Shown: positions 39,936 to 55,862, counted from the stretch's first letter. The stretch: 64,000 bases of DNA from Rhodothermales bacterium (GCA_963740755.1 CAVUFJ010000002.1:3383-67382); one strand, 5' to 3'. Notes: generated by a model from the sequence alone, not told the origin. Numbers and translations: made by a program.

Positions 39936-40277
39936 ATGGACCAGGGCACCAAGCCCTTCGATGCGATGGATGCGTTTACGCGGGAAGTCCTTGACGCGAG
40001 CCGGGTCAAACCGGTGGTGGTAGATTTCTGGGCGCCGTGGTGCGGGCCGTGCCGCGCCCTTGGCCCTGTGCTCGACCGGCTCGCCCGCGCGAGCGGCGGG
40101 GCGTGGCGCCTCGTCAAGATCAACGTGGACGCGCATCCGGCCCTCGCGCAGCGCTTCAGCGTGCGCGGGATTCCGGCCGTCAAGCTGTTTCGGGACGGGG
40201 CGGTCGTGGCCGAGTTTGCGGGCGCGCTGCCCGAGGGCGAGGTGCGCCGCTGGCTTCAGCAGCACGCCGGCGTGTAG
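39936..40277 (+). CDS. trxA: Thioredoxin
   Basis: [21 protein letters not shown]...[24 protein letters not shown]. Confidence 0.9.
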
Positions 40278-40372
40278 GGTCAGGGATCACCAAACCCACT
40301 TCCTGCGCCGGTAAGCCCAGATCGTGTGGCGCTCAATCCAACCGTCTGCTCCGAACACTCGGAGCGGCCCGC

Positions 40373-40993
40373 TCAGGCCCATCCGAAGGCGTAGAGTACG
40401 AGCGCGCCCACGAACGGTACGCGCAGGTTGTCGTTGAGGGGGACCGGGAGGGCTTCGGCGAGCGCCATCGCGCCGGCGGCTACGAGTGCGGGCAGCGCGC
40501 CCGGCATCGCCACCGGCGCGGCGCGCGGGAGCAGCAGCAGCACGGCCGTCGACACGAGGGCGAAGGCGGCCGACCCTTCCAGGGTGCGCGACGTGCCCGG
40601 CCAGCGGTGCCGCCCGGCGGCGCGCCCGACGAGCGCGGCGGCGGCGTCGCCGAGCATGAAGGCCGCGAACACGGGCACCGCCAGGCGGAGCGGGAGCAGC
40701 ACCGCGAGGAGCAGGGCCGCGATCGCAACCCACGTCGAGCCATTGAGCGTGAGCGGGCCGGTGCCGTCCGGGTGTTCTTCGGCGCGCATCATCCACCCGA
40801 AGTGCTGCCCGATCCAGCGCCCGAAGGCGGGCACCTTCGCGCGCAGCACGTCGCCGCCGAGGGTGAGCGCGACGAGCAGCGCGGCCAGGCCGATGAGCCA
40901 CGCGCGCCCGAGCGGGAAGAGCAGCACCGGCAGGAGCGCGGTGACGACGTGCAGGGCTTTGCGGCCGAGTTCTGCGCGGAACGTGATCGGCAT
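40373..40993 (-). CDS. Dolichol/phytol kinase-like (CTP-dependent polyprenol kinase, DGK1/VTE5/SEC59 family) membrane protein; start uncertain (40993 or 41074)
   Basis: ORF 40373..41074: ELGRKALHVV...GDAAAALVGRAAGRHRW...RTLEGSAAF...AEALP, with 5-6 TM helices. Confidence 0.55.
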   Translation of the reverse strand: MPITFRAELGRKALHVVTALLPVLLFPLGRAWLIGLAALLVALTLGGDVLRAKVPAFGRWIGQHFGWMMRAEEHPDGTGPLTLNGSTWVAIAALLLAVLLPLRLAVPVFAAFMLGDAAAALVGRAAGRHRWPGTSRTLEGSAAFALVSTAVLLLLPRAAPVAMPGALPALVAAGAMALAEALPVPLNDNLRVPFVGALVLYAFGWA

Positions 40994-41129
40994 GGGCAGC
41001 GAAGGGGGCCCGGTGGAGGGGGCGGGGCGAACATAGGGCGGCATTTGCACGCCGTCTGTACACATATTGGGCATCGGAGCGCTTCGTTACGCGTTCTGCC
41101 TCGCCCGTCGCCCCTCCGCCTCTCTGCCC

Positions 41130-44100
41130 ATGACGCCCGTCGAGCTGCGCCTCCAGAACTTCCTCTCCTACGGCGAGGCGGCGCCCGTGCTCGACTTCGA
41201 AGCATTCTCCGTGGCCTGCATCTCGGGCGGCAACGGGCAGGGCAAATCGAGCTTGCTCGAGGCGATCACGTGGGCGCTGTGGGGGCAGGCGCGCAAGGGC
41301 GCGAGCGCCACCAAGCCCGACGCCGACCTCATCCGCAAAGGCACGCAGCGGATGCTGGTTGAGTTCACGTTCGACCACGAGGGCGAGCGCTACCGCGTGC
41401 GCCGCGCCTACAACGTGTCCGGCAGCGGCAAGACCTCGCGCCCGGAGCTCGAACTGCTCGTGCGCGACGAGGCCACGTACCGCCCGCTCACGGGCCCGAG
41501 CGTGTCGGAGACGCAGAAGACCCTCGACCGCCTGCTGCGCCTCGACTTCGACACGTTCGTCAACGCCTCGTTTCTCATCCAGGGCCGCTCAGACGAGTTC
41601 ACGCGCAAAAAGGCGACCGAGCGCAAGGAGGTGCTCGCGCGCATCCTCGACCTCGGGCGCTATGAAGTGCTCGAAGAGCGCGCACGCGTCCGCGAGGGCG
41701 CTGCCAAAGCCGCCTACGACCTCGCCGAGCGCGACCTCGCCCGCATCGGGGCCGACCTCGCCACGCGCGCGGACGTGGAGGCGGGGCTCGCCACCGCGCG
41801 CGAGGCCGAAGCCGTCGCCCGCGCCACGCGTGAGGCCGAGGAAAGCCGCTGCCAGGTCGCCCGCCGCGCGCTCGACGCCCTCACGGCCGAGGCGCAGCGC
41901 GCCGACGACCTCCGCGCCCGCCTCGCCCGCCTCGACGCCGAGCGGGTCCGCACCGAGGCCGAGCGTGCCCAGGTGGACGCGCGCATCGCCGCCGCGGAGG
42001 CGCTCCTCGAACGCCGCGGCGAACTCGAAGCGGCCCGGGCGCGCTACGACGCCCTCGACGCCGAGCGGCGCACACTCGCCGAGCAGAGCGCCCAGCACCT
42101 CGGTCTGAAGCAGCAGGAACTCGCCCTCGACGCCGACCTCCAGCGCCGCACCGCCGAGCACGACCGCCAGCGCACGCGGCTGGAGGCCGAGCGGAGCACC
42201 GAGGCCCAGCGCCTCGCCGACCTCGACGCCGCGCGCGCCACGCGTCCGGCGCTGCTTGCCGAGCGCGCCGCCGCCCGCACCGCCGGGCACGACTTTGCCG
42301 CCCTCGACGCCACGCGCACGCGCCTGCGCGTTCTCCACGACGAGCAGCGCAGCCTCCAGGCCGACCTCGACAGCGCCCGCCGCGCCCTCGACGCCGAACG
42401 CGCCCGCGCCGAACGCCTCGCCGAAGAGGCCGCCGCCCGTGCCGCGCGCCGCCGCCGGGTGGACGCCGAGGCCGACGCCCTCCGCGACCGCGCCCAGCAG
42501 GCCGACGCCGCCCGCCAGCACCTAGCCCTGCTCCATACGCAGGGCCTGGAGCAGGGCGACCTCGTGCGCCGCCTCAAGCTCGACGCCGAGCACGCCCAGG
42601 CGGCGCTCGACACGCTCCGCACGCGCCTTGACCGGCTCGAAACCGCCGAGGCCGGCGCGTGCCCCGTGTGCGGCACCGACCTGACGCCCGACCACCGCGC
42701 CCACGCCGCCGCCGATCTGCAGGCACAGGGGGCCGAGGCGGAGGCAGAGCTGCGCGAGCGGGCGCGCACGATTGACGCCGAGGAGCGGACGCTCGGCCGC
42801 CTCCGCGCAGACTATACCGCCCAGCGCAGCGTGAGCGCCGAGCGGGCAAACGACGAGGAAGCCTTCCAGCGCCTCAACCGCGAACTCCGCGACACCGAAG
42901 GCGCCGAGGCCGAAGCGCAGGCCGCCGCGCACGCCGCCGAGACGCTCCGCGCCCGCCTCCGCGCCGGCGACGTGGCGCCGGACGTGCGCGCCCGCCTCGC
43001 GGAGATCGCCGCCGACCTCGCCGTCTCGTCTTTCGACGCCGCCCGCTACGAAGCCCTCCGCGCCGATGCCGCCCGCCTCGACGCGCTCGACCACCGGATC
43101 GCCGACCTCGACCGCCGCCTCGCCGAAACGGACGAACTGCGCGGCCGCCTCCAGCGCCTCGACGCCCGCCTCGACGACCTCCGCCGGCAGCACGACGACG
43201 GGCGCCTCTTCGGCGATGTACTCGCCCGCCGCGACCGCATCCGCGCCCGCCTCGACGCCCTCGGCTTCGACGGCGCCCGCTTCGAGGCGGTAGAGGCCGA
43301 GCACGCCCGCCTCCGCGACGTGCCGGAGCAGGTGGCCGCGCTCCTGGCCGCCCGCGAGCAGCGCGCCGACCACCTCGCCCGCCGCGCCGCGCTCACCGAA
43401 GCGCTCGCCCGCCACGCGTCCGAGGCCGATGCACTTGCCCGCGACCTCTCCGCCCTCGACGCCCTCGCCGTGCGCCGCGCCGAGGCCCGCACCCACCTCG
43501 ACGCCGCCGAGGCCGACCTGGCCCGCGCCACCGCCGTGCATGAAGGTGCCCGCGACGAGGTGGCCCGCCTCGGCCTCCGGGCGCAGCAACTCGCCGCCCT
43601 CGCCGCGCACGCCGCCGACGCCGAGGCCGAAGCCCTCCGCGCCCGCGACGAGGCCGCGCTCTACCGCCACCTCCGCACCGCGTTCTCGTCCCGGGGCATC
43701 CCGAGCCTCATCATCGAGGAGACGCTGCCCGAGATCGAGGAGATGGCCAACGACCTGCTCGGGCGCCTCACGGATGGGCGGATGCACCTCCAGCTGCGCA
43801 CGCTGCGCGACAAAAAGACGGGCGGCACCGCCGAAACGCTCGACATCGTCCTCTCCGACGAAAGCGGCGGCGAGCGGCCCTACGAGACGTTCTCGGGCGG
43901 CGAGGCCTTCCGGGTCAACTTCGCGCTCCGCGTGGCGCTCTCGCAGCTGCTCGCCCGCCGCAGCGGCGTGGCCGTGCGGACGCTCGTGATCGACGAGGGC
44001 TTCGGCACGCAGGACGTACAGGGCCTCCAAGCGCTCGTCGAAGCCATCCGCCACGTCCAGGACCACTTCGACAAGATCCTCGTCGTGACCCACCTCGACG

Positions 44101-44183
44101 AGCTGAAGGAAGCCTTCCCGGTGCGCATCGAGGTGCGCAAAGACCCCACACTCGGCTCGACGTTCGAGGTGATCGGGGTGTGA
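41130..44183 (+). CDS. sbcC: SbcC/Rad50-family DNA repair ATPase (1017 aa)
   Basis: LRLQNFLSYGE...ISGGNGQGKSSLLEAITWALWG (Walker A). A long Ala/Glu/Arg coiled coil with the zinc hook CPVCGTDL. FSGGEAFRVNFALRVAL (signature motif). LVIDEGFGTQD (Walker B). The frame is intact. Confidence 0.9.
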   Translation: MTPVELRLQNFLSYGEAAPVLDFEAFSVACISGGNGQGKSSLLEAITWALWGQARKGASATKPDADLIRKGTQRMLVEFTFDHEGERYRVRRAYNVSGSGKTSRPELELLVRDEATYRPLTGPSVSETQKTLDRLLRLDFDTFVNASFLIQGRSDEFTRKKATERKEVLARILDLGRYEVLEERARVREGAAKAAYDLAERDLARIGADLATRADVEAGLATAREAEAVARATREAEESRCQVARRALDALTAEAQRADDLRARLARLDAERVRTEAERAQVDARIAAAEALLERRGELEAARARYDALDAERRTLAEQSAQHLGLKQQELALDADLQRRTAEHDRQRTRLEAERSTEAQRLADLDAARATRPALLAERAAARTAGHDFAALDATRTRLRVLHDEQRSLQADLDSARRALDAERARAERLAEEAAARAARRRRVDAEADALRDRAQQADAARQHLALLHTQGLEQGDLVRRLKLDAEHAQAALDTLRTRLDRLETAEAGACPVCGTDLTPDHRAHAAADLQAQGAEAEAELRERARTIDAEERTLGRLRADYTAQRSVSAERANDEEAFQRLNRELRDTEGAEAEAQAAAHAAETLRARLRAGDVAPDVRARLAEIAADLAVSSFDAARYEALRADAARLDALDHRIADLDRRLAETDELRGRLQRLDARLDDLRRQHDDGRLFGDVLARRDRIRARLDALGFDGARFEAVEAEHARLRDVPEQVAALLAAREQRADHLARRAALTEALARHASEADALARDLSALDALAVRRAEARTHLDAAEADLARATAVHEGARDEVARLGLRAQQLAALAAHAADAEAEALRARDEAALYRHLRTAFSSRGIPSLIIEETLPEIEEMANDLLGRLTDGRMHLQLRTLRDKKTGGTAETLDIVLSDESGGERPYETFSGGEAFRVNFALRVALSQLLARRSGVAVRTLVIDEGFGTQDVQGLQALVEAIRHVQDHFDKILVVTHLDELKEAFPVRIEVRKDPTLGSTFEVIGV

Positions 44184-44187
44184 AGTG

Positions 44188-44264
44188 GTGATCCTAGATC
44201 ATGGATGATGGATCATGGTCCGAGGGGCGCTCTGGCCATGATCCATCTCCAACATCCGTGATCC
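44188..44264. repeat. GATC-rich palindromic intergenic repeat, copy A
   Basis: gGTGATCctaGATCATGGATGATGGATCATGGtc..ctctgGCCATGATCCatctccaacatccGTGATCC. The 22-mer GATCATGGATGATGGATCATGG is identical to 51622-51643. The inverted arms are GGATCATGG/CCATGATCC. It lies between the convergent sbcC and EamA genes. Confidence 0.75.
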
Positions 44265-44267
44265 AAG

Positions 44268-45206
44268 TCACGCCTCAGCTTCGGCCCCGGCGCGCACGGG
44301 CAGGGGCATTTGCAGGCCGCGCCGCATCCAGACGAGGCCGCCGAGCAGCAGGAGCCCCCCGAATACGTGGGGACGCGTGATGGGCTCGCCGATGAGGAAG
44401 TAGGCCGTCACCGCCGTGATGAGGGGGGTCAGGTAGGAGAACGCCGCTGTGGTGGAGGGGCCAACGTGCCCGATGGCGGCGTTCCAGACGGCGAACGTGA
44501 GCCCGACCGAGAGCGATCCGGAGAAGAAGAGCGTCGCCCACGTCACGCGCGAGATCTCGCCGAGCGGGTGCCAGCCCGGCTGGAACGCGGCGACGAGGTA
44601 CAGGCAGGGCAGGGCGACGAGCATCCCCACGAACGCGCCCGTGCCCGGCGGCACCAGCTTTTTGAGCCGTCCGCTGAGCGCTGTGTACACCGACCAGGCC
44701 ACCGAGGCGAACAGCAGCACGACGTTGCCGAGCGCCGAATCCGTGCCGGCGGACTCCTTCGCGGTGGCCACGAGGGCCGTGCCGGCGAGGGCCACGACGA
44801 GGCCCACCCAGCCCGCCGCGCGGAGCTTTTGCAGGCCGAGCGTGTGGGCGATCACGGCCGTCCACAGCGGCGAGGTGGCCATGAGCAGCGCCGCGCTCGC
44901 CGACGACGTGTGCTTGACGCCGTAGATGAAGCCTTCCTGGTAGAGAAAGTAGCCCACGAAGCCGAGCCCCGCGAGCGGCAGTCCGTACAGCCGGACCACC
45001 TCGGTGAAGGACCGCTCCGCCCGGCGCAGTTCTCGCAGCGCGAAGATGCCGAGGGCGATGGTGCCGAAGGTGTAGCGGATCGCGTTGGTCTGCGACGTCG
45101 AGACCTCGCGGAGGGCGATCTTGAGGAAGGGCACATTGGCGCCCCAGATGACGACCGTGGCGAGGAGCGCCAGTTCGTAGCGGTACCGGCGGAAGAGGGC
45201 AATCAC
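44268..45206 (-). CDS. EamA/DMT-family transporter
   Basis: Intact ORF with 10 TM segments and a duplicated EamA-like layout. Confidence 0.8.
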   Translation of the reverse strand: MIALFRRYRYELALLATVVIWGANVPFLKIALREVSTSQTNAIRYTFGTIALGIFALRELRRAERSFTEVVRLYGLPLAGLGFVGYFLYQEGFIYGVKHTSSASAALLMATSPLWTAVIAHTLGLQKLRAAGWVGLVVALAGTALVATAKESAGTDSALGNVVLLFASVAWSVYTALSGRLKKLVPPGTGAFVGMLVALPCLYLVAAFQPGWHPLGEISRVTWATLFFSGSLSVGLTFAVWNAAIGHVGPSTTAAFSYLTPLITAVTAYFLIGEPITRPHVFGGLLLLGGLVWMRRGLQMPLPVRAGAEAEA

Positions 45207-45321
45207 AGAGAGGGGGACAAAGTGGTCGGACGCGCGGCGCGGCGGTGCGTTCTTGGCGAGGCGGGGACGCGGCGTAGATTCCGGCGTAGTTCACGCGCGT
45301 CTGCCCTCCCGCCGCCTGCTT

Positions 45322-45645
45322 ATGTCCGCGCCCGCGATCCCGAAGCTCTATTACAGCATCGCCGAGGTGAGCGCGCTCACGGGCGTCGAGGCGCACGTGC
45401 TGCGGTACTGGGAGACCGAGTTCGACGTGCTGCGCCCGCGCAAGAACCGCTCGGGCCACCGCATCTACACCGACGCCGACATTGTGGTCGTGCGGCGGAT
45501 CGCGCGCCTGATGCACGCCGAGAAGTACACCCTCGAAGGCGCCCGCCAGCGCCTGGCCAGAGACGCGTCCGAAGGAGACCGGCGCGGGCACCTCAGCGAC
45601 CTACGAAGCTTTCTCGTGGGCCTGCGCGACCGCCTCGGCGAGTAA
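45322..45645 (+). CDS. MerR-family transcriptional regulator
   Basis: YYSIAEVSALTGVEAHVLRYWETEFDVLRPRKNRSGHRIYTDADI (MerR HTH). Confidence 0.85.
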   Translation: MSAPAIPKLYYSIAEVSALTGVEAHVLRYWETEFDVLRPRKNRSGHRIYTDADIVVVRRIARLMHAEKYTLEGARQRLARDASEGDRRGHLSDLRSFLVGLRDRLGE

Positions 45646-45875
45646 CGGGGCGGCAAGCCGCTTCCAAACGGGTCAGCACCCCCGCCATCCGCCCACCTGC
45701 AGCAACAAGACGGTTGTGCTGCGTCTTGGCCTCCACGCCTCCCGTACGTCGAGGTGCGTCCTGCAAAACCTCCGCTTGCCCACGATCTGCGGATATGCGG
45801 CACGACGCCACAGATCCGCGGATCGCCCGCACGAGGCCGCGCGCAACTGAAGAGGGGAGTCCGAATAACGCCCTC

Positions 45876-45904
45876 TTGACACCGCACACCTGCAGCACGA
45901 TATT
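45876..45904 (+). promoter_or_regulatory. Candidate sigma70-type promoter upstream of the Shedu-like gene
   Basis: TTGACA (45876-45881), a 17-nt spacer, then GATATT (45899-45904), about 64 nt upstream of the ATG at 45968. This is a sequence match only. Confidence 0.3.
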
Positions 45905-45967
45905 GCCTGATACGCCGCATGACGCGGCATATTCACTGGTTATACCGCCTTCTGAGCCTGCTATCCT

Positions 45968-47082
45968 ATGTCCGAACAGCATCAGAAGGACGCACAGCCG
46001 CGAACAGCCTTTCCGATACGAGCGACAAAGCCAAATAAGGAATCCAAGCCAGACCTTGAAAAGGTCAGTTCAGTAGTCCTATGTGAGGGGCCTCGTTCGA
46101 AGAAAGAGGCCATCTATCTCGTCGTTCGGAGTCGCCATACTGGTGAGATTAAGCACGATTCAATTACCATTAAATCATTTGGCCGGAAGTCTGGTGAGCT
46201 ATATGAGAAGCCGGAGCATTCAGTTACCCTCTCAAGCGAAAAGACTGACGAGATACGAAAGCTAGTTGATTTTACACTGGCATCACGATCCGGCTCGGTC
46301 CCAAATGAATCGGGGGATTTTGTAGTCATAGGAACCTCTGACGGCGTCAGCAAAGACTCTTTGGTTAGGTTTCTAAGTGATTTGTCTGCGTCTGGCAAGA
46401 TTGAAGTGCTGGCCGATGTTTTGGGGCAGATCAGTTACGACCGGCATCTACTCACATCACTCCTTGAACGTGCTGCCCAAAACCCCAAACTTTTTGCTGA
46501 AGCTGCCGCCGCCCTGAATCTAGTAACGTACAAGCAGTCCTTCGATGAGCTCGAACGTCTGGTTGCAAAGGCAAATGTGCAAGAGAGTGAACTACAAACC
46601 CTGCTTAAGGACAATCCGTGGATGTTTAGGAGCAGCTCATAAGCTATCTTCCAAGCAGAAAGCTGACTCGGGATGAGGAGCAGGATTTCATCTTGCGTAC
46701 GACCACAGACGGATACATTGAGATCGTAGAGATCAAAACACCCCTCAACGGCCAAAAGCTTTTCAACTACGACGCTTCTCACGACAGCTATTATCCGGGC
46801 GCTTCACTCGCAAAGGTTATGGGCCAAGTTCAGCACTACTTGGATCTCATTGATGCAGATAGATATGCCATACAATCCAAGGATCAAGAGGACACTTTTC
46901 AAGACGCGGGCCAAGATAATTATAGGCCGCAGTGGAGACGACAAGCAATTGAAAGCAATTCGGTCGCTCAACGGCCACCTGATGAGGATCGAGATCCTCA
47001 CCTCGATCAACTGGTTCAAATAGCCCGGAACACCCTGAATTATCTCTACGCCTCGTTGCGTCCTGCAACTCCGGCGGTCTAA
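45968..47082 (+). CDS. Shedu-like (DUF4263, SduA-type) PD-(D/E)xK nuclease defence protein; 3 frameshifts in this assembly
   Basis: ORF 45968..46642 ends ...ESELQTLLKDNPWMF. After a shift near 46628 it reads EQLISYLPSRKLTRDEEQDFILRTTTDGYIEIVEIKTP...MGQVQHYLD (frame of ORF 46693..47082). After a shift near 46895 it reads LFKTRAKIIIGRSGDDKQLKAIRSLNGHLMRIEILT. Restoring one base at 47003/47004 gives ILTYDQLVQIARNTLNYL... Confidence 0.65.
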
Positions 47083-47199
47083 CCCATCGCTTCAGCAGAC
47101 AGCGGGCGTTAGCGCCTCCGGCCTCGCCCCCACTCCACCGCTCCACTCGCCCCGTTTCAGCCATCGTGGCGTTTGCCCGCTGCGGCTGAGCTTTGTCTG

Positions 47200-48356
47200 T
47201 TATTCGGACGCTGGAAGCCCGGTCTCCGTGTCGAGGCGCAGCGAAAGATCGCCGCGGAGGAGGCGGACGAGGTCGTCGCCGATGAAGGTGCGGCGCCAGC
47301 CGGTGAGCAGGCGGTGGGCGTCGGGGGCCGTGTCGGCGCCGCTGGCGCCGAGGGCGAGCACGTCGGCGCGGTTGGCCACGAGCGCCGGATCTACGCCTTC
47401 GGCGAGGCCGCGGCCCTTGATGAAGGCGAGCATGAGGTCCACCCGCGCGCTGAGCGTGTCGTCTTCGGCGGGGGCGTCGGCAGAGCGCAGGGCGGGTCCT
47501 GCAGGCCCGCCTCCACCGCCTCGGCGATGGCCTCTCGCGTGGCGGCGGGGATCGCGTCGAGGCGCAGCACGGCGTCCTCGGTGGTGGGCTTGCGCTGCGC
47601 GGCCATCACGAGCGCATCGTCCGGCACCACGTGGCCGCGTGGCAGGTCGAGGCGCTGCGCTTAGGCTCGCGCCACGCAGCGATGCGGAGCAGGATGGCGC
47701 GTTCCTTCGGGTGCAGGCGCATCTGGCCCTTGAGGCGCAGGTAGGCTTCGTCGGGCGTGCGCTCGGCCGGCGCGCGTCGGCGTCGAGAGGTCGAGCCTGC
47801 TCTTCGCGGAGCCACGCGAGCGCGCCCGCGCCTCGGTGATGCGCGCGTCGAGCACGGCGCGGCCTGGCGCGAGGTAGCGCACGTCGTCGTGGGCGTAGTC
47901 GATCTGCGCGTCGCTGAGCGGGCGGCGCAGCCAGTCGGTGCGGCTCTCGGTCTTGGCGAGGTGCACGCCGGACGGTGGCCGCGAGCAGGCGCTGCAGCGA
48001 GAGCTGCTCGGCGAGGCCGCGCAGACCTGCGGCGAGGCGCGTGTCGAACACGTTGGCGGCACGGGCCCCGGTGGCGCGGCGCAGGATGGCGAGGTCCTGC
48101 CCGGCGTCGTGGAGCACCTTCTCCACCGCGCGTCTTCGATCAGCGCGCCGAGGGGTGCGAGGTCGAGCGCGAGCGGGTCGAGCAGGAACGTCTGCCGCCT
48201 TCGGTAGCCGAGCTGCACGAGGCCGAGGCGCGGGTAGTACGTCCGCTCCCACACGAACTCGGTGTCTACCGCCACGCGGCGGCTCCGTGCGGAGGCGCGC
48301 GAACGAGCGCGGTCGAGGAAGCGTCGGGGGTCGGTGATCGAGCGGCGTCTCTGCAT
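47200..48356 (-). CDS. rnd: Ribonuclease D; at least 5 frameshifts
   Basis: VAVDTEFVWERTYYPRLGLVQLG (ORF 47661..48872 frame). VEKVLHDAGQDLAILRR...NVFDTRLAAG (ORF 47200..49275 frame). KTESRTDWLRRPLSDAQIDYAHDDVRYL. C-terminal HRDC-like part ...LLTGWRRTFIGDDLVRLLRGDLSLRLD. Confidence 0.8.
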
Positions 48357-49689
48357 CAGCCGCCTCCGAGCAGGATGCCGGCAATGGTGGCCGAGAGGGC
48401 GGTGGCGAGGCTGCCCGCGAGCACGCACTTGAGGCCGAGGCTCGGCAATCTCGCCGCGCCGCTCGGGCGCAAGCCCGCCGATGCCGCCGATCTGGATGGC
48501 GATGGACGAGAAGTTGGCGAAGCCGCAGAGCGCGTACGTCGCCATCGTCACCGAGCGGAGGCTCATCTGGTCCTTCATGCCGGCCAGGTCGAGGTAGGCC
48601 ACAAACTCGTTCACCGACACCTTCTGCCCGAGCAGGGAGCCGAAGAGCAGGATGTCCTTGCTCTCGATGCCGATGGCCCACGCAAACGGGGCAAACAGAA
48701 AGCCGAAGATGGACTGGAACGACAGGCCGGTGAAGCGCCCGCCGGAGGCGCTGGAGATGGCGCCGTTGAGGTCCCACAGGTAGTAGTCGCCAAAGGTCGG
48801 GTGGCCGAGCCAGCCGAGCAGGGCGTTGAGGAGCGCGATGAGCGCGATGAAGGCGAGCAGCATCGCGCCCACGTTGAGCGCCAGCTGAGCCCTCGGAGGC
48901 GCCGCCGGCCGCGGCCTCGATCACGTTCGAGGCCGCCTTCTCGCTCTCCAGCTTCGTTTGCCCGAGCGTGAGCGGCACGCCCGTCTCGGGGATCATCATC
49001 TTCGAGAGGAAGAGCGCCGCCGGGGCGTTCATGATCGACGCGGCGAGGAGGCTCTTGGCGAACTGCGCCTGCGCCGCCGGATCGTCGCCGCCAAGCAGCA
49101 CGATGTAGGAGGCGAGCACGCCGCCCGCGAGCGTGGCCATGCCGCCCACCATGAGCGCGAACAGCTCCGAGCGCGTCATCGTCTTCACGTAGGGCTTCAC
49201 CAGCAGCGGCGCCTCGGTCTGCCCGAGGAAGATGTTGCCCGCCGCGCTGAGGCTCTCGGCCCCCGAGAGGCGCATCGTGCTTCGCCATCACGAGGCCCCA
49301 CGCCGCGCACGATCATCTGCAGGATGCCCAGGTGGTAGAGCACGCTCGTGAGGGCGCCGAAGAAGATGATCGTCGGCAGCACCTGAAAGGCGAAGATGAA
49401 GCCCAGCCGAGCCGCGCCCGACGCCGCGCGCGAGGCCGCCCAAAGACGAAGGCCGCGCCTTCCTGCGTGAAGCCGATGAGGACGTGAAGCCGCGCCCGAT
49501 GGCCCCGAACAGGCGAGGCGCCGAAGCTCGTCTTGAGCACGAAGAGCGCGAAGACGAGCTGGAGCCGCGAGGCCCACGCCCACCGTGCGCCACGGAATGG
49601 CCTTGCGGTCGCTCGACAGCCGCGTAGGCGATGCCGAGGATGACGGCGATCCCGAGGAGGCCGCGCAGGAGGGCAACAGGAAAAGACAT
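48356..49689 (-). CDS. NupC/CNT-family concentrative nucleoside transporter; at least 6 frameshifts
   Basis: [22 protein letters not shown]... [53 protein letters not shown]...[43 protein letters not shown]. These pieces are scattered over ORFs 49197..49742, 47200..49275 and 47661..48872. The stop shares one nucleotide with the rnd ATG (TGATG). Confidence 0.8.
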
Positions 49690-49865
49690 GGCAGGCGATG
49701 AGAAGCGCCGAAGATAGGCGTCCCGGGCGGGCCACGCCCCACGTCGTGTCCGTATCACGTTCGATACAACGCCGACCCGCGCTGCAGGGGCGTGATCCTC
49801 CCCCAACCCTTCGCCCCGCGCCGAACCCCGACCGGCTATCTTGCCTGAAACCGCTCCGGCTGCCC

Positions 49866-51536
49866 ATGCCCGCCCTCGGCTCCCCGCTCCCCGCCACCGA
49901 CGTCCCCACCCGCCGCCGCGCCGACTACGACGCGCTGCTCGGAGGCCACCGAGGCCCGGCGGGCGCGGTCTACCAGGGCGGCGGCGCCAAGGCCATCGCG
50001 CGCGAGCACAGCCGGGGCAAGATGACCGCGCGCGAGCGCATCGCCGCCCTCTGCGACGCCGGGCACGCCGTTCTTCGAACTCGGCACGTTCGTGGGCTGG
50101 GAGCATGTACGAGGCCGAGGGCGGCTGCCCGGCGGGCGGCACCGTGATGGGCTTCTGCACGGTGAGCGGGCGCCGCGTGCTCGTGGTCGCCAACGACGCG
50201 ACCGTGAAGGCGGGGGCGTGGTTTCCGATCACGGCCAAGAAGAACCTCCGCGCGCAGGAGATCGCCCTCGAAAACCGCGTCCCGCTCGTCTACCTCGTGG
50301 ACAGCGCCGGGCGTGTTCCTGCCGATGCAGGACGAGATCTTCCCGGACAAGGAGCACTTCGGGCGCCTCTTCCGCAACAACGCGATCCTGTCGTCGCGCG
50401 GGATTCCGCAGATCGCCGCCATCATGGGCTCGTGCGTGGCGGGCGGCGCGTACCTGCCCATCATGTCCGACGAGGCGCTGATCGTCGAGGGCACGGGCTC
50501 GGTGTTTCTCGCCGGGCCGTTCCTCGTGCGCGCGGCCATCGGCGAGGTGACGGACAATGAGACGCTCGGCGGCGCCGCCACGCACCGCCGAGATCTCGGG
50601 CGTGACCGACTACAAGGTCAAGGACGACGCCGAGGCGCTCCAGCGCATCCGCGAACTCGTCTCGCACTTCCGCCCCAACCCGCCCGCGCTCTTCGCCCGC
50701 GACACGCCGCGCGCGCCCGCGTTCTCGCCGGACGAACTCACCGCCGTCGTGCCCACCACCGGCACCGTGCCCTACGACGTGCGCGAGGTCATCGCCCGGC
50801 TCGTGGACGCCGACTCGTGGACCGAGTACAAGGCCGACTACGGGCAGACGATCCTGTGCGGCTACGCCCGCCTCGACGGGTGGAGCGTGGGCATCGTGGC
50901 CAACCAGCGGAGCGTGGTCAAGGCGCGGCGCTCGGAAGGGCAGGAGCTGCAGGCGGGCGGCGTCATCTACTCGGACTCGGCGGACAAGGCCGCGCGTTTC
51001 ATCCTCAACTGCAACCAGAAGGGCGTGCCGCTCATCTTCCTGCAGGACGTGACGGGCTTCATGGTGGGCAAGCGCGCCGAGCACGGCGGCATCATCAAGG
51101 ACGGCGCCAAGATGGTCAACGCCGTGGCCAACTCGGTCGTGCCCAAGTTCACCGTCGTGATCGGCAACTCGTACGGCGCGGGCAACTACGCCATGTGCGG
51201 GCGCGCCTACGACCCGCGCCTGATGCTCGCGTGGCCGACGGCGCGCATCGCGGTGATGGGCGGCGCGCAGGCGGCCAAGACGCTCCTGCAGATCGAGCAG
51301 GCGAAGCTCAAAAAGCAGGGCAAGGAGATCTCGCCCGAGGAGGAGGCCGCGCATGCTCGCCGACATCCAGGCCCGCTTCGACCGCGCCACGACGCCCTAC
51401 TACGCCGCCGCGCGCCTGTGGGTGGACGAGATCATCGACCCGCGAAGACACCCGCGCCTGGCTCGCGGTCGGCCTCGAAGTGGCCGCCCTCAACCCGGAC
51501 GTGCCCCGCTTCAACCCCGGCGTGATCCAGACGTGA
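49866..51536 (+). CDS. Acyl-CoA carboxylase carboxyltransferase (beta) subunit, methylcrotonyl-/propionyl-CoA carboxylase family; at least 5 frameshifts
   Basis: [85 protein letters not shown]...[38 protein letters not shown]...[16 protein letters not shown]. These lie across ORFs 49841.., 50313.. and 50557... Confidence 0.85.
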
Positions 51537-51620
51537 GCCTGCTGCGCCGCCCGCACTTCGGCGGCGCAGCAGGCCCCGAGGGCTTTGTGTCAAGTCCGGC
51601 CGAAGGGTGGGAACGCCCGC

Positions 51621-51705
51621 CGGATCATGGATGATGGATCATGGCCAGAAGGCAACTCTGGACGTCTCTGACCATGATCGATGATCCGTGATCAACCCGG
51701 TGATC
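51621..51705. repeat. GATC-rich palindromic intergenic repeat, copy B
   Basis: GGATCATGGATGATGGATCATGGcc..ctctgg..CCATGATCgatGATCCGTGATCaacccgGTGATCC. It shares the 22-mer, CTCTGG, CCATGATC and ATCCGTGATC with copy A. Like copy A, it lies between convergent genes. Confidence 0.75.
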
Positions 51706-51729
51706 CCGCCATGCAACCGGATCGGGTTA

Positions 51730-51969
51730 TCATTCCTGCCCGCCGCCGCCGCGCTGGCCCCCGCCCCCGCCGGCATTGCCGCCGCCGCCGCCCTGCTCGT
51801 CGCGGGCCTGCTTGTCGGCGCCGCCGTCCTGGGAGTGGCGATGGTGGGGCTGCTGCGTGTTGTCGCCGCCGCCGGACGAGGCGCCGGGGCCCGTGTCGGT
51901 GTGCGTGTTGGGCTGCTTGCGGGCGTTGTCGTCGCCCTTCTTGGGTTCGTCCTGCTTGCTCAGGCCCAT
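51730..51969 (-). CDS. Hypothetical small Gly-rich hydrophilic protein (79 aa)
   Basis: ATG at 51969 in the frame of ORF 51730..53616: MGLSKQDEPKKGDDNARKQPNTHTDTGPGASSGGGDNTQQ...DEQGGGGGNAGGGGGQRGGGGQE. The composition resembles stress-induced disordered proteins. Coding status is unproven. Confidence 0.35.
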   Translation of the reverse strand: MGLSKQDEPKKGDDNARKQPNTHTDTGPGASSGGGDNTQQPHHRHSQDGGADKQARDEQGGGGGNAGGGGGQRGGGGQE

Positions 51970-52049
51970 GGTCGTGTACTTGAAGGTGGGCCGCAAGATG
52001 GGCACGCCGCAGGCCCTTCGTCTGTGAGGCTCCCGTAACCGATCGTCGG

Positions 52050-52661
52050 TCAGCGCAGCTCGTCGGAGCGCAGGGGCCTGATAGCACTTCCGGTCATGTC
52101 CACGTCCTCGTAGAGTTCGTCGAAGGGCACCTCCAGAGGGGGCAGGCCGGGCAGGGCGAGCGTGAGCGCGCCCTCGGTGACGGGCTCGCCGATCTGCCAG
52201 AGGCCCGCCTCTGTGCGCGCGAACACGTCCGCGTGGCGGCGGTCCTGCGCGATGAGCACGTAGGCGCGCAGCGACGGAATCCGGCGGTACCGCTCGAACT
52301 TGTAGCCCCGGTCGTAGGCCTCGGTGGAGGGCGAGAGCACCTCGAAGACGACGGCGGGGTTGACGAGCGCGCCCCGCACGTACTCGGGCCGCCCGCACAC
52401 GAGCACGACATCGGGGTAGACGTAGCTCGCGCCCTCGTCCACTTCCACGCGCAGATCCGACGAGTTGACGCGGCACGGCTTGCCGCGCAGGCGCCTGCCA
52501 AGCGCGATGGTCAGGTTGTCGGTGACGTTGGCGTGGCTCGGGGAGGCACCCGACATGGCGAAGATCTCGCCGTCGTGGTATTCGTGCTTGGCCTCGACCG
52601 AGGCCTCCTCGAAGGCGAGGTAGTCGTCGGGCGAGAGGAGCAGGTGCGGGGCAGCGCTCAT
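52050..52661 (-). CDS. Uma2-family (DUF820) PD-(D/E)xK endonuclease
   Basis: Intact ORF: HEYHDGEIFAMSGASPSHA...YPDVVLVCG...NPAVVFEVLSPSTEAYDRGYKFERYRRIPSLRAYVLI, the classic Uma2 pattern. Confidence 0.85.
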   Translation of the reverse strand: MSAAPHLLLSPDDYLAFEEASVEAKHEYHDGEIFAMSGASPSHANVTDNLTIALGRRLRGKPCRVNSSDLRVEVDEGASYVYPDVVLVCGRPEYVRGALVNPAVVFEVLSPSTEAYDRGYKFERYRRIPSLRAYVLIAQDRRHADVFARTEAGLWQIGEPVTEGALTLALPGLPPLEVPFDELYEDVDMTGSAIRPLRSDELR

Positions 52662-52694
52662 GGCGGCGGTGGGCTGCAGGGCATACGCACAGCG

Positions 52695-54396
52695 TCAGCG
52701 GCGGCTCCGGAAGCCCGTGTCGAAGTCGTCCTCGAAGGACGCCACCGCGCGGGCGCTGGGCCGCGGGGCGACGGCGTCGAAGAACGCCTGGTCGTAGGAG
52801 CGCGTGCGCACGGCAATCGGCATCGGGACGGCGTGGCCGAGCACGCAGCATCTGCTGCTTCGTGTCGAGCGTGGCGAGGATGCCGCGCAGCGCGCTCGAG
52901 CCGGAGATGCCGGTGAGCACGGCGGCGAGGTCCTTGTCGTCGGAGAGCGCGGCGACGAAGCTGGTGCCGATCTGGCTCATCACCTCGTCGTCGATGGCGG
53001 AGGGGCGCTGGTCCACGACGAGCAGGCTCACGTAGAACTTGCGCATCTCGCGCGCGATCTTGCCAAACGGCGTCTCCTGCGCGATGCCGGGCGCGAGAAA
53101 GCGGTGCGCCTCCTCGATCGTGATCAGCAGCCGGCGCGGCTCGTCGGCGGGGTTCTTGGAGCCCTGGAAGCGCACGGCCATGTCCTCGTACTTGTCGCGC
53201 AAGCCGCCGCGTGACGACGCCCGAGACGAGCAGGTAGGCGTCGAGGTCCTGCACGCCCCCGAACTCGAACACGACCGACTTGCCCGCCGCGATGCTCTCG
53301 ACGATAAAGTCGAGCACGTCCGTTTGCCCTTCGACGGCTCGGTCGAGAAGAAGCCGAAGCGGTTGAACTTGACGAGCTTGCGCCGCAGCGCCGAGAGCGA
53401 CCCCGGATGCGCGCCCGTTTCCTCGGCCATCGCGTCGATCTCGCTCTGCTCGGCGCGCCAGCAGCCGTTCGAGCCATCGCTCGCTGGTACTTCTCGCGGA
53501 GCAGGTAGGCGCTGTCGGCGGCGGTGGCGTTGAGGCCGAGCGTGTTCTGGAGCGGCAGGATGTCGGCAGGCTCGATCTGGTCGGCGTAGAGCGTCGCCTC
53601 CACGTCGCACCGGCACCTGCCGCTGCCGGGCGTGGGCGGCGTCGACGCGTCACGATGAAGACGCGTCCGCCGAAGAGCTGTTCGAGGCCCTGGCACGTAG
53701 CCCTGCGAGCCGCCCGCGCCCTCCTGCGTGCCCTCCCAGCCGTACTCCGAGTGGGCATCGAAGACGAGCACCGAGGCGCGGTCGCGGCGGATCGTGCCCG
53801 CGAGCAGCAGGCGGGTGATGAACGTCTTGCCGGTGCCGGTGCGCCCGAAGACGGCGTTGGAGCGCTCGACGAAGCGGTCGAGGTCGACGCACACGCGGCG
53901 CCGATTCCATGTCGAGCGGGCGGCCGACCTCGAAGTACTGCCGGTCGGTGCGGGCCTCGGCGCCGAAGACGCGCGCGACGTCTTCGGCGGCGGCGCGGTA
54001 GACGGTCGAGAAGTGCGCCGGGACGGTTTTGACGGGGCGGGGCGCTTCCTCGCCGGTGTCGAGTGTCTGGTTGGAAAGCGCGAGGAGGGGCTTGAGCGAG
54101 ACGGTCGCGTAGGTGCTCTGGCCATGGAGCACGCGCCGCAGCAGCGCCCCTTCCGGCGTCGAGGCCGGGGGCGGGTTGAGCAGGATGCCCTCGTTGGCCG
54201 CCTCGATGCGCGCGTCGGTGATGAGGCAGAAGAAGTCGAGCGACTCGCCCTGCACGACGGCGAAGGTGCCGGTGGACACGTCCTCGACCGAGCAGCCCGC
54301 GTCGAGCTTCATCTCGACGCCGTCGAGGAGCGAGCCGTGCGTGATGACGCCGAGGGCGTCGCCCGCGCGGCGCGAGCGGAGGTCGAGGTCGGGCAT
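52695..54396 (-). CDS. HerA-like (DUF87/FtsK-HerA superfamily) ATPase; at least 7 frameshifts
   Basis: The N-terminal barrel-like part is MPDLDLRSRRAGDALGVITHGSLLDGVEMKL...FAVVQGESLDFFCLITD (ORF 53650..54396). Walker A is NAVFGRTGTGKTFITRLLLAG (ORF 53124..54125). Walker B and following sequence is RRLLITIEEAHRFL...FYVSLLVVDQRPSAIDDEV (ORF 51730..53616). The C-terminus is ...VLGHAVPMPIAVRTRSY...FEDDFDTGFRSRR, with its stop at 52695. Confidence 0.7.
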
Positions 54397-54543
54397 GGGC
54401 GGCGAGGACTACGCCGCAAGGTACCACCCCCCGGCGGGTGCGCCACGCCGGGGCCTCCCTTCCGAGGGAAGGGCGGATCTGAAGGGCAGGTTCAAGCAGC
54501 CCCTTGCCGTTGGGCGCGGGGCTTGAGCGAGAGGACGGGCGGC

Positions 54544-54780
54544 TTACGCCTCCAGTTCCTCGGCGGCTTTCTCCGCAAGCAGGCCCGCAATGATGATCGG
54601 AATGGCCTTCAGGATGACGCCCACGAGCATCTTCGTCGTCATGCGGACGGTCAGACGCAGGATCGTCGGCAGGAGCGTGATCGCGAGGGCGCCGCCGAGC
54701 ACGCCGAGCACGAGCTTGCCGGCGTCGGTCTGGGCGAGGTTGGTGGCGGTGCGGGTCAGGCTGGCGGTGGAGGTGGCCAT
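54544..54780 (-). CDS. Hypothetical small membrane protein (78 aa, 2 predicted TM helices)
   Basis: ORF 54544..54780: ...GKLVLGVLGGALAITLLPTIL...LVGVILKAIPIIIAGLLA. Same strand as the HerA-like gene and 148 nt upstream of it. Confidence 0.35.
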   Translation of the reverse strand: MATSTASLTRTATNLAQTDAGKLVLGVLGGALAITLLPTILRLTVRMTTKMLVGVILKAIPIIIAGLLAEKAAEELEA

Positions 54781-54896
54781 GGGAGTGAGGAGCGGAATGC
54801 GCCAAACTAGCCCCGGTGCGTCGCCCGGCCCGTTGACGATCCGGCAACGCTTCGGCGCGGGCGGTGCTACTTTGGCCCACCCCGACCCGTACGCCC

Positions 54897-55862
54897 ATGC
54901 ACGACCCGCTCGCCCCCGCCGCCGTCTCGCGCGACACGCTCAACGACATGCAGCTCTACCTCGTCGACGAGTTCGCCGAGGACTACGCCGAAGGACACCT
55001 GCCACGGCGCGACGCCCTGCGGCTCATCGCGGGCGTTACCGGCAGCCTGGCCTTTGCCACGACCGTGCTGGCCGGCTGTGTAACGCCGTCTCCCGCCACA
55101 TCGCCCGTGCTGCCGCCGCTCACCGGCGACGCCGACCCGGTGACGGTCCCGGAGGCCGACCCGGCGATCCGCGCTGAGCGGGTCACGTTTGCGGGCGAAG
55201 GCGGCGTCACCCTCAGGGGCTACCTCGCCCGCCCGAGCGCACGCGGACGGCATCCGCTCGTGCTCGTGTGCCACGAAAACCGGGGCCTCACGCCCCACAT
55301 CGAGGACGTCACCCGCCGACTGGCCCGCGCGGGCTATGTGGGCCTCGCGGTGGACCTGCTCTCGCGGCAGGGCGGCACGCCTGCCATCGCCGACGCCGCG
55401 CAGGTGCCCCAACTGCTCGGGCAGGCGCCGCCCGAACAGGCCGTGGCCGACTTTCAGGCGGGCCTCCGGTATGCACAGGCGCAGCCGTTCACGGCGCCCG
55501 GTCCGGTGGGGATGACGGGCTTCTGCTACGGCGGCGGCGTGACGTGGCGCGTGGCGACAAAGACGCCCGCCGTCAAGGCCGCCGTGCCGTTCTACGGGCC
55601 GCCCCCGCGCGCCGAGGACGTGCCGGGCCTGCAGGCCGCCGTGCTCGCCTTTTACGGCGAAACCGATACGCGCATCAACAGCATGATTCCGGACATCGAG
55701 GCGGCGATGCGGGCGAGCGGCAAGACGTTCGAGCCGGTGATCTTCCCCGGCGTCGGCCACGCCTTCCACAACGACACGGGCCGCAACTACAACGCCGACG
55801 CCGCCCGCGCCGCCTGGACCCGCACGCTTGCGTGGTTTGACCGCTACCTCCGCCGGAGTTGA
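54897..55862 (+). CDS. Dienelactone hydrolase family protein (secreted or lipoprotein)
   Basis: LVLVCHENRGLTPHIEDVTRRLARAGYVGLAVDL...GMTGFCYGGG...AFYGETD...FPGVGHAFHND. Confidence 0.8.
   Translation: MHDPLAPAAVSRDTLNDMQLYLVDEFAEDYAEGHLPRRDALRLIAGVTGSLAFATTVLAGCVTPSPATSPVLPPLTGDADPVTVPEADPAIRAERVTFAGEGGVTLRGYLARPSARGRHPLVLVCHENRGLTPHIEDVTRRLARAGYVGLAVDLLSRQGGTPAIADAAQVPQLLGQAPPEQAVADFQAGLRYAQAQPFTAPGPVGMTGFCYGGGVTWRVATKTPAVKAAVPFYGPPPRAEDVPGLQAAVLAFYGETDTRINSMIPDIEAAMRASGKTFEPVIFPGVGHAFHNDTGRNYNADAARAAWTRTLAWFDRYLRRS

What the first reader, a model, noticed from the sequence alone, without database searches (positions are those of the whole stretch)
45646..47199. Low-GC islet carrying a single Shedu-like (DUF4263) nuclease gene between merR-like and rnd
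Base composition drops abruptly from the ~65-70% GC background between about 45.95 and 47.1 kb, where A/T-rich codons appear (for example aaataaggaatccaagccagacc). The islet carries a single gene. After repairing three 1-nt indels (near 46628, near 46895 and at 47003/47004), it reads ...ESELQTLLKDNPWMF-EQLISYLPSRKLTRDEEQDFILRTTTDGYIEIVEIKTPLNGQKLF...MGQVQHYLDLID...LFKTRAKIIIGRSGDDKQLKAIRSLNGHLMRIEILT(Y)DQLVQIARNTL. These are the hallmarks of the Shedu SduA C-terminal domain as I know it: NPW-hydrophobic-F, a D...E-x-K PD-(D/E)xK core, Q..Y, IIGR and ILTYD.L. I do not recognise the ~210-aa N-terminal region (MSEQHQKDAQPRT...SGKIEVLADVLGQISYDRHLL), so it may be a new variant of the hypervariable Shedu sensor domain. 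No integrase, tRNA or flanking direct repeats are visible, so how the islet inserted is unexplained.
Basis: partly seen in the sequence, partly recalled or inferred. Interest (0 to 1): 0.7.

Follow-up and report, generated by a model that had tools for sequence, protein, structure and literature searches.

The report
Foreign Shedu defence gene, assembly-damaged
A single, horizontally acquired anti-phage nuclease gene of the already known Shedu (SduA) family sits in a low-GC patch of a high-GC Rhodothermales-like genome, and its three frame breaks are no more than the indel noise seen throughout this assembly, so the finding is real but ordinary.

Summary
A 1.19-kb segment (45864-47049) has 49% GC against about 70% in the flanks. 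Its GC3 is 0.53, against 0.91-0.93 in neighbouring genes.

Once joined, the gene is clearly a type I Shedu nuclease:
- Pfam SduA_C scores 63.9 bits (cut-off 27).
- PADLOC SduA model PDLC00402 gives E=8.5e-37 over residues 28-361.
- All PD-(D/E)xK motif residues are present.
- The closest intact homologue models onto the B. cereus Shedu nuclease (TM 0.72).

Two parts of the interpretation fail:
- The N-terminal region is not new. More than 100 full-length homologues from several phyla share it, and so do 94 representatives at 50% identity.
- The frame breaks are not specific to this gene. nupC, rnd, a TreZ-like glycosidase and a HerA-like ATPase are also split across frames, and there are about 46 frameshift-like switches in 64 kb. 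So the breaks cannot mark the gene as a dead remnant.

One caveat: break 1 lies in a GSEYS motif invariant in 59 homologues, and no single-base repair restores it.

No empty site, integrase, tRNA or convincing repeats were found, so how the gene inserted stays open. Verdict: a new member of a known kind, low interest.

The parts
45864..47049 (.). Low-GC (49%) foreign segment, the 'islet'
   Evidence: Two-change-point likelihood fit; sliding GC
45876..45904 (+). Sigma-70-like promoter candidate (TTGACA-17-GATATT) at the left edge of the low-GC segment, 64 nt upstream of the ATG
   Evidence: 10 of 12 consensus positions, 1 found against 0.6 expected in shuffles. This is a consensus match only; function is inferred.
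45968..46633 (+). sduA piece A: N-terminal beta-rich domain (about aa 1-122), helical linker (about aa 129-200) and nuclease motif I (E206), ending in NPWMF-RS. Read as deposited it is a 224-aa ORF ending at 46642.
   Evidence: structure model; alignment
46634..46635 (+). Break 1: one base missing. It lies inside the subfamily's invariant GSEYS motif. The best single-base repair reads RS(E)LIS.
46636..46896 (+). sduA piece B: PD-(D/E)xK core with motif II D240, motif III E255/K257 and motif IV Q287
   Evidence: motif definitions from Gu et al. 2023
46896..46899 (+). Break 2: a TTTT run where homologues (E-D-P/T-F-K-T-R) require TTT, so one extra T
46898..47002 (+). sduA piece C: FKTRAKIIIGRSGD...RIEILT
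47003..47004 (+). Break 3: 'T|C' where the nearly invariant Phe (TTC) is expected, so one base is missing
47005..47082 (+). sduA piece D: DQLVQIARNTLNYLYASLRPATPAV and the stop codon
45322..45645 (+). Left flank: MerR-family regulator, intact. sbcC-eamA-merR synteny is conserved in Rhodothermales MAGs.
47200..48330 (-). Right flank: rnd (RNase D), convergent with sduA, itself split by at least 3-4 frameshifts

Best explanation
This is a horizontally acquired, single-gene type I Shedu (SduA) anti-phage cassette. It belongs to an already catalogued, widespread subfamily (PADLOC model PDLC00402). It probably carries its own promoter. It sits in the convergent gap between a MerR-family gene and rnd in a high-GC Rhodothermales-like genome.

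The protein has three parts: an N-terminal beta-rich domain of about 120 aa, a helical linker of about 80 aa, and a C-terminal PD-(D/E)xK nuclease (DUF4263).

The mechanism is inferred by analogy with the two solved Shedu enzymes. The nuclease domains would assemble into a homotetramer. [quoted passage not shown] In E. coli SduA the signal is free DNA ends. In B. cereus Shedu activation is a switch from tetramer to octamer. The enzyme then nicks or cuts the foreign DNA.

The three frame breaks match the general indel load of this assembly. They are more likely sequencing or assembly errors than evidence of a dead gene: I put about 0.6 on the gene being intact in the organism and about 0.4 on it being genuinely broken.
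For: Family membership:
- Pfam SduA_C E=2.5e-17, 63.9 bits against a cut-off of 27.
- PADLOC SduA PDLC00402 E=8.5e-37 over aa 28-361.
- 266 homologues, the best at 67% identity over full length.
- E206, D240, E255, K257 and Q287 lie in columns invariant across 60 sequences. Their spacing matches B. cereus motifs I-IV.
- The model of the closest intact homologue matches the B. cereus Shedu nuclease 8ti9 (TM 0.72, E=1.2e-7) and 8ti8.

Foreign origin:
- GC 0.49 against 0.70; GC3 0.53 against 0.91-0.93.
- Homologues are also 11-14 GC points below their host contigs, each sits in a different context, and none shares a conserved partner gene.
- One homologue lies in a CTnDOT-like conjugative element and one on a Roseomonas plasmid.

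Breaks not specific to this gene:
- Pfam domains are split across frames with consecutive profile coordinates in nupC (at least 5 breaks in 1.3 kb) and rnd (at least 3-4), and in a TreZ-like glycosidase and a HerA-like ATPase.
- A codon-phase HMM finds 46 frameshift-like switches in 64 kb, 15 of them at 47-54 kb.
- Breaks 2 and 3 are one-base changes in T runs, and repairing them restores the family consensus exactly.
- The joined gene has no internal stop, even at 49% GC.
Against: - As deposited, the gene is broken. The longest ORF gives a 224-aa product that lacks the nuclease core.
- Break 1 lies in a GSEYS motif invariant in all 59 homologues, and no single-base repair restores it.
- The joined protein has 11 mismatches at 87 highly conserved columns. 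Other members average 3.2 and reach 11 at most. Four of the 11 are at break 1.
- The immediately adjacent left flank (sbcC, eamA, merR, about 4.6 kb) has no frameshift at all. The indel load is therefore patchy, and I could not explain why.
- HMM switch sites are not enriched in long homopolymers. The simple homopolymer-error model is therefore not shown.
- Mechanism, oligomeric state and anti-phage activity are all inferred, not tested.
Confidence: 0.75

Rival explanations
1. The gene is a genuine decaying Shedu pseudogene. It was acquired horizontally and then inactivated by real frameshifts, so the locus no longer defends the cell.
For: - There are three frame breaks in 1.1 kb, and the longest ORF stops at 224 aa before the catalytic core.
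- Break 1 destroys the GSEYS motif, invariant in 59 homologues, in a way one base cannot mend.
- The gene shows 11 mismatches at conserved columns against a family mean of 3.2.
- The directly adjacent sbcC, eamA and merR genes carry no indel.
Against: - Essential or housekeeping neighbours (nupC, rnd) carry even more frame breaks per kb, yet keep well-conserved domain sequence. The same pattern appears 20 kb away and 6 kb away.
- The joined gene has no internal stop, and all catalytic and other invariant residues outside break 1 are kept.
- Breaks 2 and 3 are plain T-run length changes.
- Seven of the eleven mismatches are conservative. At least one (D322S) is shared with the closest homologues.
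Confidence: 0.3
2. The gene is not a defence gene but another PD-(D/E)xK enzyme, such as a NucS/EndoMS-like repair nuclease or a restriction endonuclease, that merely resembles DUF4263.
For: - The Shedu nuclease fold is related to EndoMS (Gu et al. 2023).
- The Foldseek list also includes the nicking endonuclease Nt.BspD6I at E=2.7e-4.
- No NCBIfam model matches the protein.
Against: - The Pfam hit is SduA_C only, and well above its cut-off.
- 16 PADLOC SduA models match, one of them nearly end to end.
- Homologues are annotated as Shedu by NCBI.
- The best structural matches by far are B. cereus Shedu 8ti9 and 8ti8.
- No methylase or other partner gene lies next to it.
Confidence: 0.03
3. The low-GC patch is an assembly chimera, that is, a piece of another organism's DNA joined in by the assembler, and not a true insertion in this genome.
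For: - The assembly is of poor quality, with widespread indels.
- The compositional borders are sharp.
- No mobility gene or target duplication is present.
- No related genome with the same junction could be found.
Against: - The patch is only 1.2 kb, holds exactly one complete gene with its upstream region, and sits neatly in an intergenic gap between two convergent host genes. A random chimeric join would be unlikely to respect these limits.
- Close homologues show the same 'single gene, GC well below host' pattern in three independent contigs.
Confidence: 0.05

Closest known systems
Type I Shedu / SduA subfamily represented by PADLOC model PDLC00402 (for example Roseomonas mucosa WP_323874164.1, Anabaena sphaerica WP_190564744.1, Microvirga pudoricolor WP_204214987.1)
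   Same: Same length (350-400 aa) and same three-part architecture. Identity is 42-67% over at least 90% of the length, N-terminal domain included. The conserved motifs match: NPWMFG, DF..R.TTDG.IE..EIKTPL, GQVQ.Y, RAKIIIGR, RIE.ITFDQL. All occur as solitary genes.
   Different: The window copy has three frame breaks and lacks the invariant GSEYS motif. The best hit is only 67% identical, so it is a new sequence within the subfamily. It sits in a Rhodothermales-like host at 70% GC.
Bacillus cereus B4264 Shedu (PDB 8ti8/8ti9; Gu et al. 2023, Type 1A)
   Same: The domain order is NTD, then helical linker, then DUF4263, with similar boundaries (B. cereus 1-117, 118-170, 171-end). The nuclease fold matches at TM 0.72. 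The linker plus nuclease also aligns with 8ti8. Motif I-IV residues are present with matching spacing. Both NTDs are predicted to be beta-rich with a following helix.
   Different: Sequence identity is only 16-19% in the structural alignment. A profile search of PDB sequences does not find 8ti8 at all. Whether the NTD is an sPC4/Whirly fold could not be shown, because Foldseek found no PC4, Whirly or MRP hit. Octamer activation is untested here.
Escherichia coli SduA (PDB 8ps4/8ps5; Loeff et al. 2023)
   Same: It is a type I Shedu with a C-terminal PD-(D/E)xK domain. It is the only PDB sequence the family profile detects (E=0.037, C-terminal 210 residues). Its DNA-end sensing and nicking mechanism is the best experimental model for what such enzymes do.
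   Different: The similarity is marginal and confined to the nuclease domain. 8ps4 did not appear among the top 50 Foldseek matches. The N-terminal clamp domain shows no detectable relationship.

Membership tests
Shedu (SduA, DUF4263) | C-terminal DUF4263 / SduA_C domain above the curated threshold | tested here: met
   PF14082 at 63.9 bits against a gathering score of 27, profile positions 3-159 of 159. 16 PADLOC SduA models match, best E=8.5e-37. The test was done on the joined translation.
Shedu (SduA, DUF4263) | PD-(D/E)xK catalytic motifs I-IV (B. cereus E204, D249, E264/K266, Q295) | tested here: met
   E206, D240, E255, K257 and Q287 are invariant in the 60-sequence alignment and present in the window gene. 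D-to-E spacing is 15 and K-to-Q spacing is 30, against 15 and 29 in B. cereus. The ExK aligns with the 8ps4 'EVKKP' segment. The residue-to-motif mapping rests on spacing and alignment, not on a structure of this protein.
Shedu (SduA, DUF4263) | Nuclease domain fold like solved Shedu structures | tested here: met
   The AlphaFold model of the closest intact homologue P0001 (67% identical; nuclease region pLDDT 90-97) matches 8ti9_C at E=1.2e-7, TM 0.72, rmsd 3.8 A. The window's joined protein itself could not be submitted.
Shedu (SduA, DUF4263) | Single-gene system with no conserved partner gene | tested here: met
   The neighbours differ completely between the window and three homologue contigs.
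Shedu (SduA, DUF4263) | Uninterrupted reading frame encoding the full protein | tested here: not met
   The deposited sequence has three 1-nt indels. The weight of this failure is low, because housekeeping genes in the same window are equally or more heavily broken.
Shedu (SduA, DUF4263) | Protection against phage that depends on the nuclease active site | not testable with these tools
   Needs expression in a laboratory host, phage challenge and D240/E255/K257 mutants.
Shedu (SduA, DUF4263) | Homotetramer through the nuclease domain | not tested
   Only monomer models were made.
Shedu Type 1A of Gu et al. 2023 (sPC4/Whirly-like N-terminal domain) | N-terminal domain with the beta-beta-beta-beta-alpha sPC4/Whirly fold that dimerises | tested here: inconclusive
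   The confident NTD model (pLDDT about 96 over residues 20-120) has strands 15-20, 30-40, 44-54, 61-74 and 77-80, helix 95-108 and strand 116-120, which is compatible in outline. However, the Foldseek PDB search gave no PC4, Whirly or MRP hit and nothing below E=0.009 or above TM 0.22. The paper's classification table is not held.

The most novel reading that the evidence does not exclude
The conserved N-terminal domain of about 120 aa in this SduA subfamily may be a sensor fold with no solved relative. It has no PDB match and no sequence link to the E. coli or B. cereus N-terminal domains. It could therefore recognise a different infection signal from the DNA-end sensing shown for E. coli SduA. 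The subfamily-specific, invariant GSEYS motif between nuclease motifs I and II could be part of that coupling.
Probability: 0.25. Interest if true: 0.4.

Novelty: new member of a known kind. Interest (0 to 1): 0.15.

Why it matters
The finding adds one more Shedu gene, in a Rhodothermales-like lineage, to a defence family that already has thousands of members. That has little importance by itself.

Two practical points are more useful:
- This contig carries indels throughout. Any 'pseudogene' call made from it is unsafe, including calls for essential genes such as rnd and nupC.
- This widespread SduA subfamily has a confidently foldable N-terminal domain with no solved relative. That makes it a reasonable target for anyone studying how Shedu sensor domains differ.

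Tried and rejected
1. Empty-site comparison.
- A genome-contig scan with MerR gave 80 loci. The best are Rhodothermales MAGs at only 57-59% identity. sbcC-eamA-merR synteny is conserved, but none has rnd, nupC or sduA within 10 kb.
- A metagenome scan with EamA gave only a 68% relative on a 1.6-kb contig.
- The test could therefore not be done.

2. The window's own contig could not be retrieved through its 224-aa ORF.

I used the intact 224-aa ORF and the homologue P0001 instead.

4. Classifying the N-terminal domain.
- The Foldseek search gave only weak hot-dog thioesterase and lipocalin beta-sheet matches (E at least 0.009, TM at most 0.22), which I treat as noise.
- Supplementary Table S3 of Gu et al. 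is not held.

5. NCBIfam: no model matches.

6. Phage genomes: no homologue.

7. Flanking repeats. The only candidate is a 22-nt, 82% direct repeat at 45745 and 47047 with a 12-nt exact core. That is about what chance gives in 2.5 kb of GC-rich DNA, and the right copy encodes conserved protein sequence. I rejected it as an att site.

8. Homopolymer test of the error model. HMM switch sites are not enriched in runs of 4 or more: 7% against 23% at random sites. The result is inconclusive at the HMM's resolution of 15-30 nt.

Full report
**1. The observation**

The composition drop is real and sharp. In 300-bp windows, GC falls from 0.66-0.80 to 0.48-0.50 between about 45.9 and 47.1 kb. This is the lowest 1.1-kb stretch in the whole 64-kb window: 0.489, against a median of 0.712. 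A two-change-point fit puts the borders at 45864 and 47049, with 49% GC inside. Third-codon-position GC is 0.53 in the gene. It is 0.92 in sbcC, 0.93 in eamA and 0.91 in merR.

The segment holds one + strand gene (45968-47082), read in four frame pieces:

| Part | Coordinates | Note |
|---|---|---|
| Piece A | 45968-46633 | |
| Break 1 | 46634-46635 | one base missing |
| Piece B | 46636-46896 | |
| Break 2 | 46896-46899 | one extra T in a TTTT run |
| Piece C | 46898-47002 | |
| Break 3 | 47003/47004 | one base missing |
| Piece D | 47005-47082 | includes the stop codon |

After joining, the gene has no internal stop.

**2. What the gene is**

- The joined 372-aa translation hits only Pfam SduA_C (PF14082, E=2.5e-17, 63.9 bits against a cut-off of 27, full profile).
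- It hits 16 PADLOC SduA models. The best, PDLC00402, gives E=8.5e-37 and covers residues 28-361.
- A search of 5.8 billion proteins found 266 relatives. The top 120 almost all cover at least 90% of the query at 41-67% identity. They come from Bacteroidota, Acidobacteriota, Cyanobacteria, Planctomycetota and Alphaproteobacteria, and several are named Shedu or DUF4263 by their sources.
- In a 60-sequence alignment, E206, D240, E255, K257 and Q287 are invariant. Their spacing matches motifs I-IV of B. cereus Shedu (E204, D249, E264/K266, Q295) as defined by Gu et al. 2023.
- An AlphaFold model of the closest intact homologue (P0001, 67% identical) matches the B. cereus Shedu nuclease domain 8ti9 (E=1.2e-7, TM 0.72, rmsd 3.8 A). 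It also matches the linker plus nuclease of 8ti8.

The Shedu assignment is therefore secure.

**3. The N-terminal region is not new**

- It aligns across all 60 family members at 32-66% identity and is part of PADLOC model PDLC00402.
- Used alone (130 aa) against 1.84 billion cluster representatives, it finds 94 proteins at E of 0.001 or better. Most are 350-400 aa with the domain at the N-terminus.
- Its model is confident (pLDDT about 96 over residues 20-120). It has four or five strands, a helix and a further strand, followed by a helical linker of about 80 residues.
- It has no significant match in the PDB (best E=0.009, TM at most 0.22).
- It shows no sequence link to the N-terminal domains of the two solved Shedu proteins.

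So it is an uncharacterised domain, but not a novel one. Whether it belongs to the sPC4/Whirly class (Type 1A) of Gu et al. could not be settled.

**4. The frame breaks**

Frame-by-frame Pfam scans show single domains split between frames with consecutive profile coordinates.
- In nupC, three domains are split between frames. That gives at least 5 breaks in 1.3 kb:
  - Nucleos_tra2_N splits into profile positions 13-30 and 27-72.
  - Gate splits into 1-33 and 35-102.
  - Nucleos_tra2_C splits into 2-60, 61-192 and 180-213.
- In rnd, DNA_pol_A_exo1 splits into 76-126 and 129-162, and there are further shifts before and after HRDC.
- The same pattern occurs in a TreZ-like glycosidase at 27.6-29.3 kb and a HerA-like ATPase at 52-54 kb.

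A codon-phase HMM was trained on sbcC and eamA. It finds 46 same-strand phase switches that do not coincide with a stop codon. Fifteen of them lie between 47 and 54 kb, and none lies between 40 and 45.6 kb.

The 224-aa truncated product is also in the public protein collection, assigned to a 68,385-bp contig (P0005). The indels therefore belong to the deposited assembly.

Genes with five or more frameshifts but otherwise well-preserved domain sequence are what sequencing error looks like, not slow decay. Three breaks in 1.1 kb of sduA is within the local rate. Breaks 2 and 3 are single-base changes in T runs, and correcting them restores the family consensus exactly (EDT-FKTRAK and ILT-F-DQL).

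**5. Evidence that keeps the pseudogene reading alive**

- Break 1 falls in a GSEYS motif that is invariant in all 59 homologues. The window DNA there (AGG AGC AGC TCA TAA GC) cannot be turned into GSEYS by one base. The best repair reads RS(E)LIS.
- The joined protein has 11 mismatches at 87 columns that are at least 90% conserved. The family mean is 3.2 and the maximum 11. Four of the 11 are at break 1.
- The 4.6 kb immediately to the left (sbcC, eamA, merR) has no indel, so the error load is patchy for reasons I could not establish.
- Long homopolymers are not enriched at the HMM switch points.

On balance I put about 0.6 on the gene being intact in the organism and about 0.3-0.4 on it being truly broken.

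**6. Origin and insertion**

- The host is Rhodothermales-like. The best MerR relatives are Rhodothermales MAGs at 57-59% identity, and sbcC-eamA-merR synteny is shared with them.
- None of 80 merR loci has rnd, nupC or sduA within 10 kb. The metagenome scan found no close relative. No empty site is therefore available.
- There is no tRNA, no Rfam element, no integrase and no terminator-like site.
- The only flanking repeat is a 22-nt, 82% match at 45745 and 47047, which is probably chance.
- A sigma-70-like promoter candidate (TTGACA-17-GATATT, 45876-45904) lies just inside the left border, so the cassette may bring its own promoter.
- The gene lies between the 3' ends of merR (+) and rnd (-), a position where an insertion disrupts nothing.
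- Close homologues behave the same way. They are solitary genes, 11-14 GC points below their host contigs, each in a different context. One lies inside a CTnDOT-like conjugative element beside other defence-type genes. One is on a 208-kb Roseomonas mucosa plasmid. No phage genome has a homologue.

This supports repeated horizontal transfer as a single-gene unit. The insertion mechanism itself remains unknown.

**7. Likely mechanism (inferred, not tested)**

The inference follows Gu et al. 2023 and Loeff et al. 2023. The nuclease domains would form a tetramer. [quoted passage not shown] On sensing invading DNA, the enzyme would nick or cut it. In E. coli SduA the signal is free DNA ends. In B. 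cereus Shedu activation is an octamer-forming switch.

**8. Verdict**

The finding is a real feature that was correctly recognised as Shedu. It belongs to an already catalogued subfamily, so it is a new member of a known kind. Its apparent damage cannot be told apart from assembly noise. Interest is low.

Noticed in passing
window 1-64000; clusters at 47.2-49.7, 50.0-51.5, 52.8-53.9, 24.2-25.1, 27.9-29.1, 32.7-33.4 and 35.8-36.8 kb: There are about 46 frameshift-like codon-phase switches across the window. Pfam confirmed them in nupC, rnd, a TreZ-like glycosidase and a HerA-like ATPase. The deposited contig appears indel-rich, so gene calls and pseudogene calls from it are unreliable.
   Followed up: yes
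window 40000-45650 compared with 47200-54000: The indel load is very uneven. There are none in sbcC, eamA or merR (about 4.6 kb), but 4-5 per kb in rnd and nupC just beyond the islet. Uneven polishing or uneven coverage is a guess. The cause is unexplained.
   Followed up: partly
window 45745-45766 and 47047-47068: A 22-nt imperfect direct repeat (82% identical, with the 12-nt exact core TGCGTCCTGCAA) brackets the islet. The right copy starts at the right GC change point (47049) and encodes the conserved SLRPA tail of SduA. It is probably chance, but it could mark a microhomology junction.
   Followed up: partly
window 52000-54900, minus strand: A HerA-like DUF87 ATPase, itself frameshifted, is followed by an intact Uma2-family restriction-endonuclease-like gene about 5 kb from sduA. 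I did not determine whether this is a defence module.
   Followed up: no
L003 1-21128 (ENA ERZ25070591 ctg148001): The 60%-identical SduA homologue P0004 lies inside a CTnDOT-like conjugative element (TraJ, TraM, TraG-type genes). It is next to genes encoding DUF499/HEPN_Swt1, DUF1156 and SNF2-helicase proteins and a PIN-domain pair, which together form a defence island on a mobile element.
   Followed up: no
window 41067-45645 and loci L004, L006, L009, L012: The gene order sbcC-eamA-merR is conserved between the window and distant Rhodothermales MAGs (35-59% protein identity). Everything downstream of merR differs.
   Followed up: partly
window 46628-46650: The subfamily motif GSEYS, between nuclease motifs I and II, is invariant in 59 homologues but is not conserved in E. 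coli SduA. Its role is unknown, and it is the one place where the window gene departs strongly from its family.
   Followed up: partly
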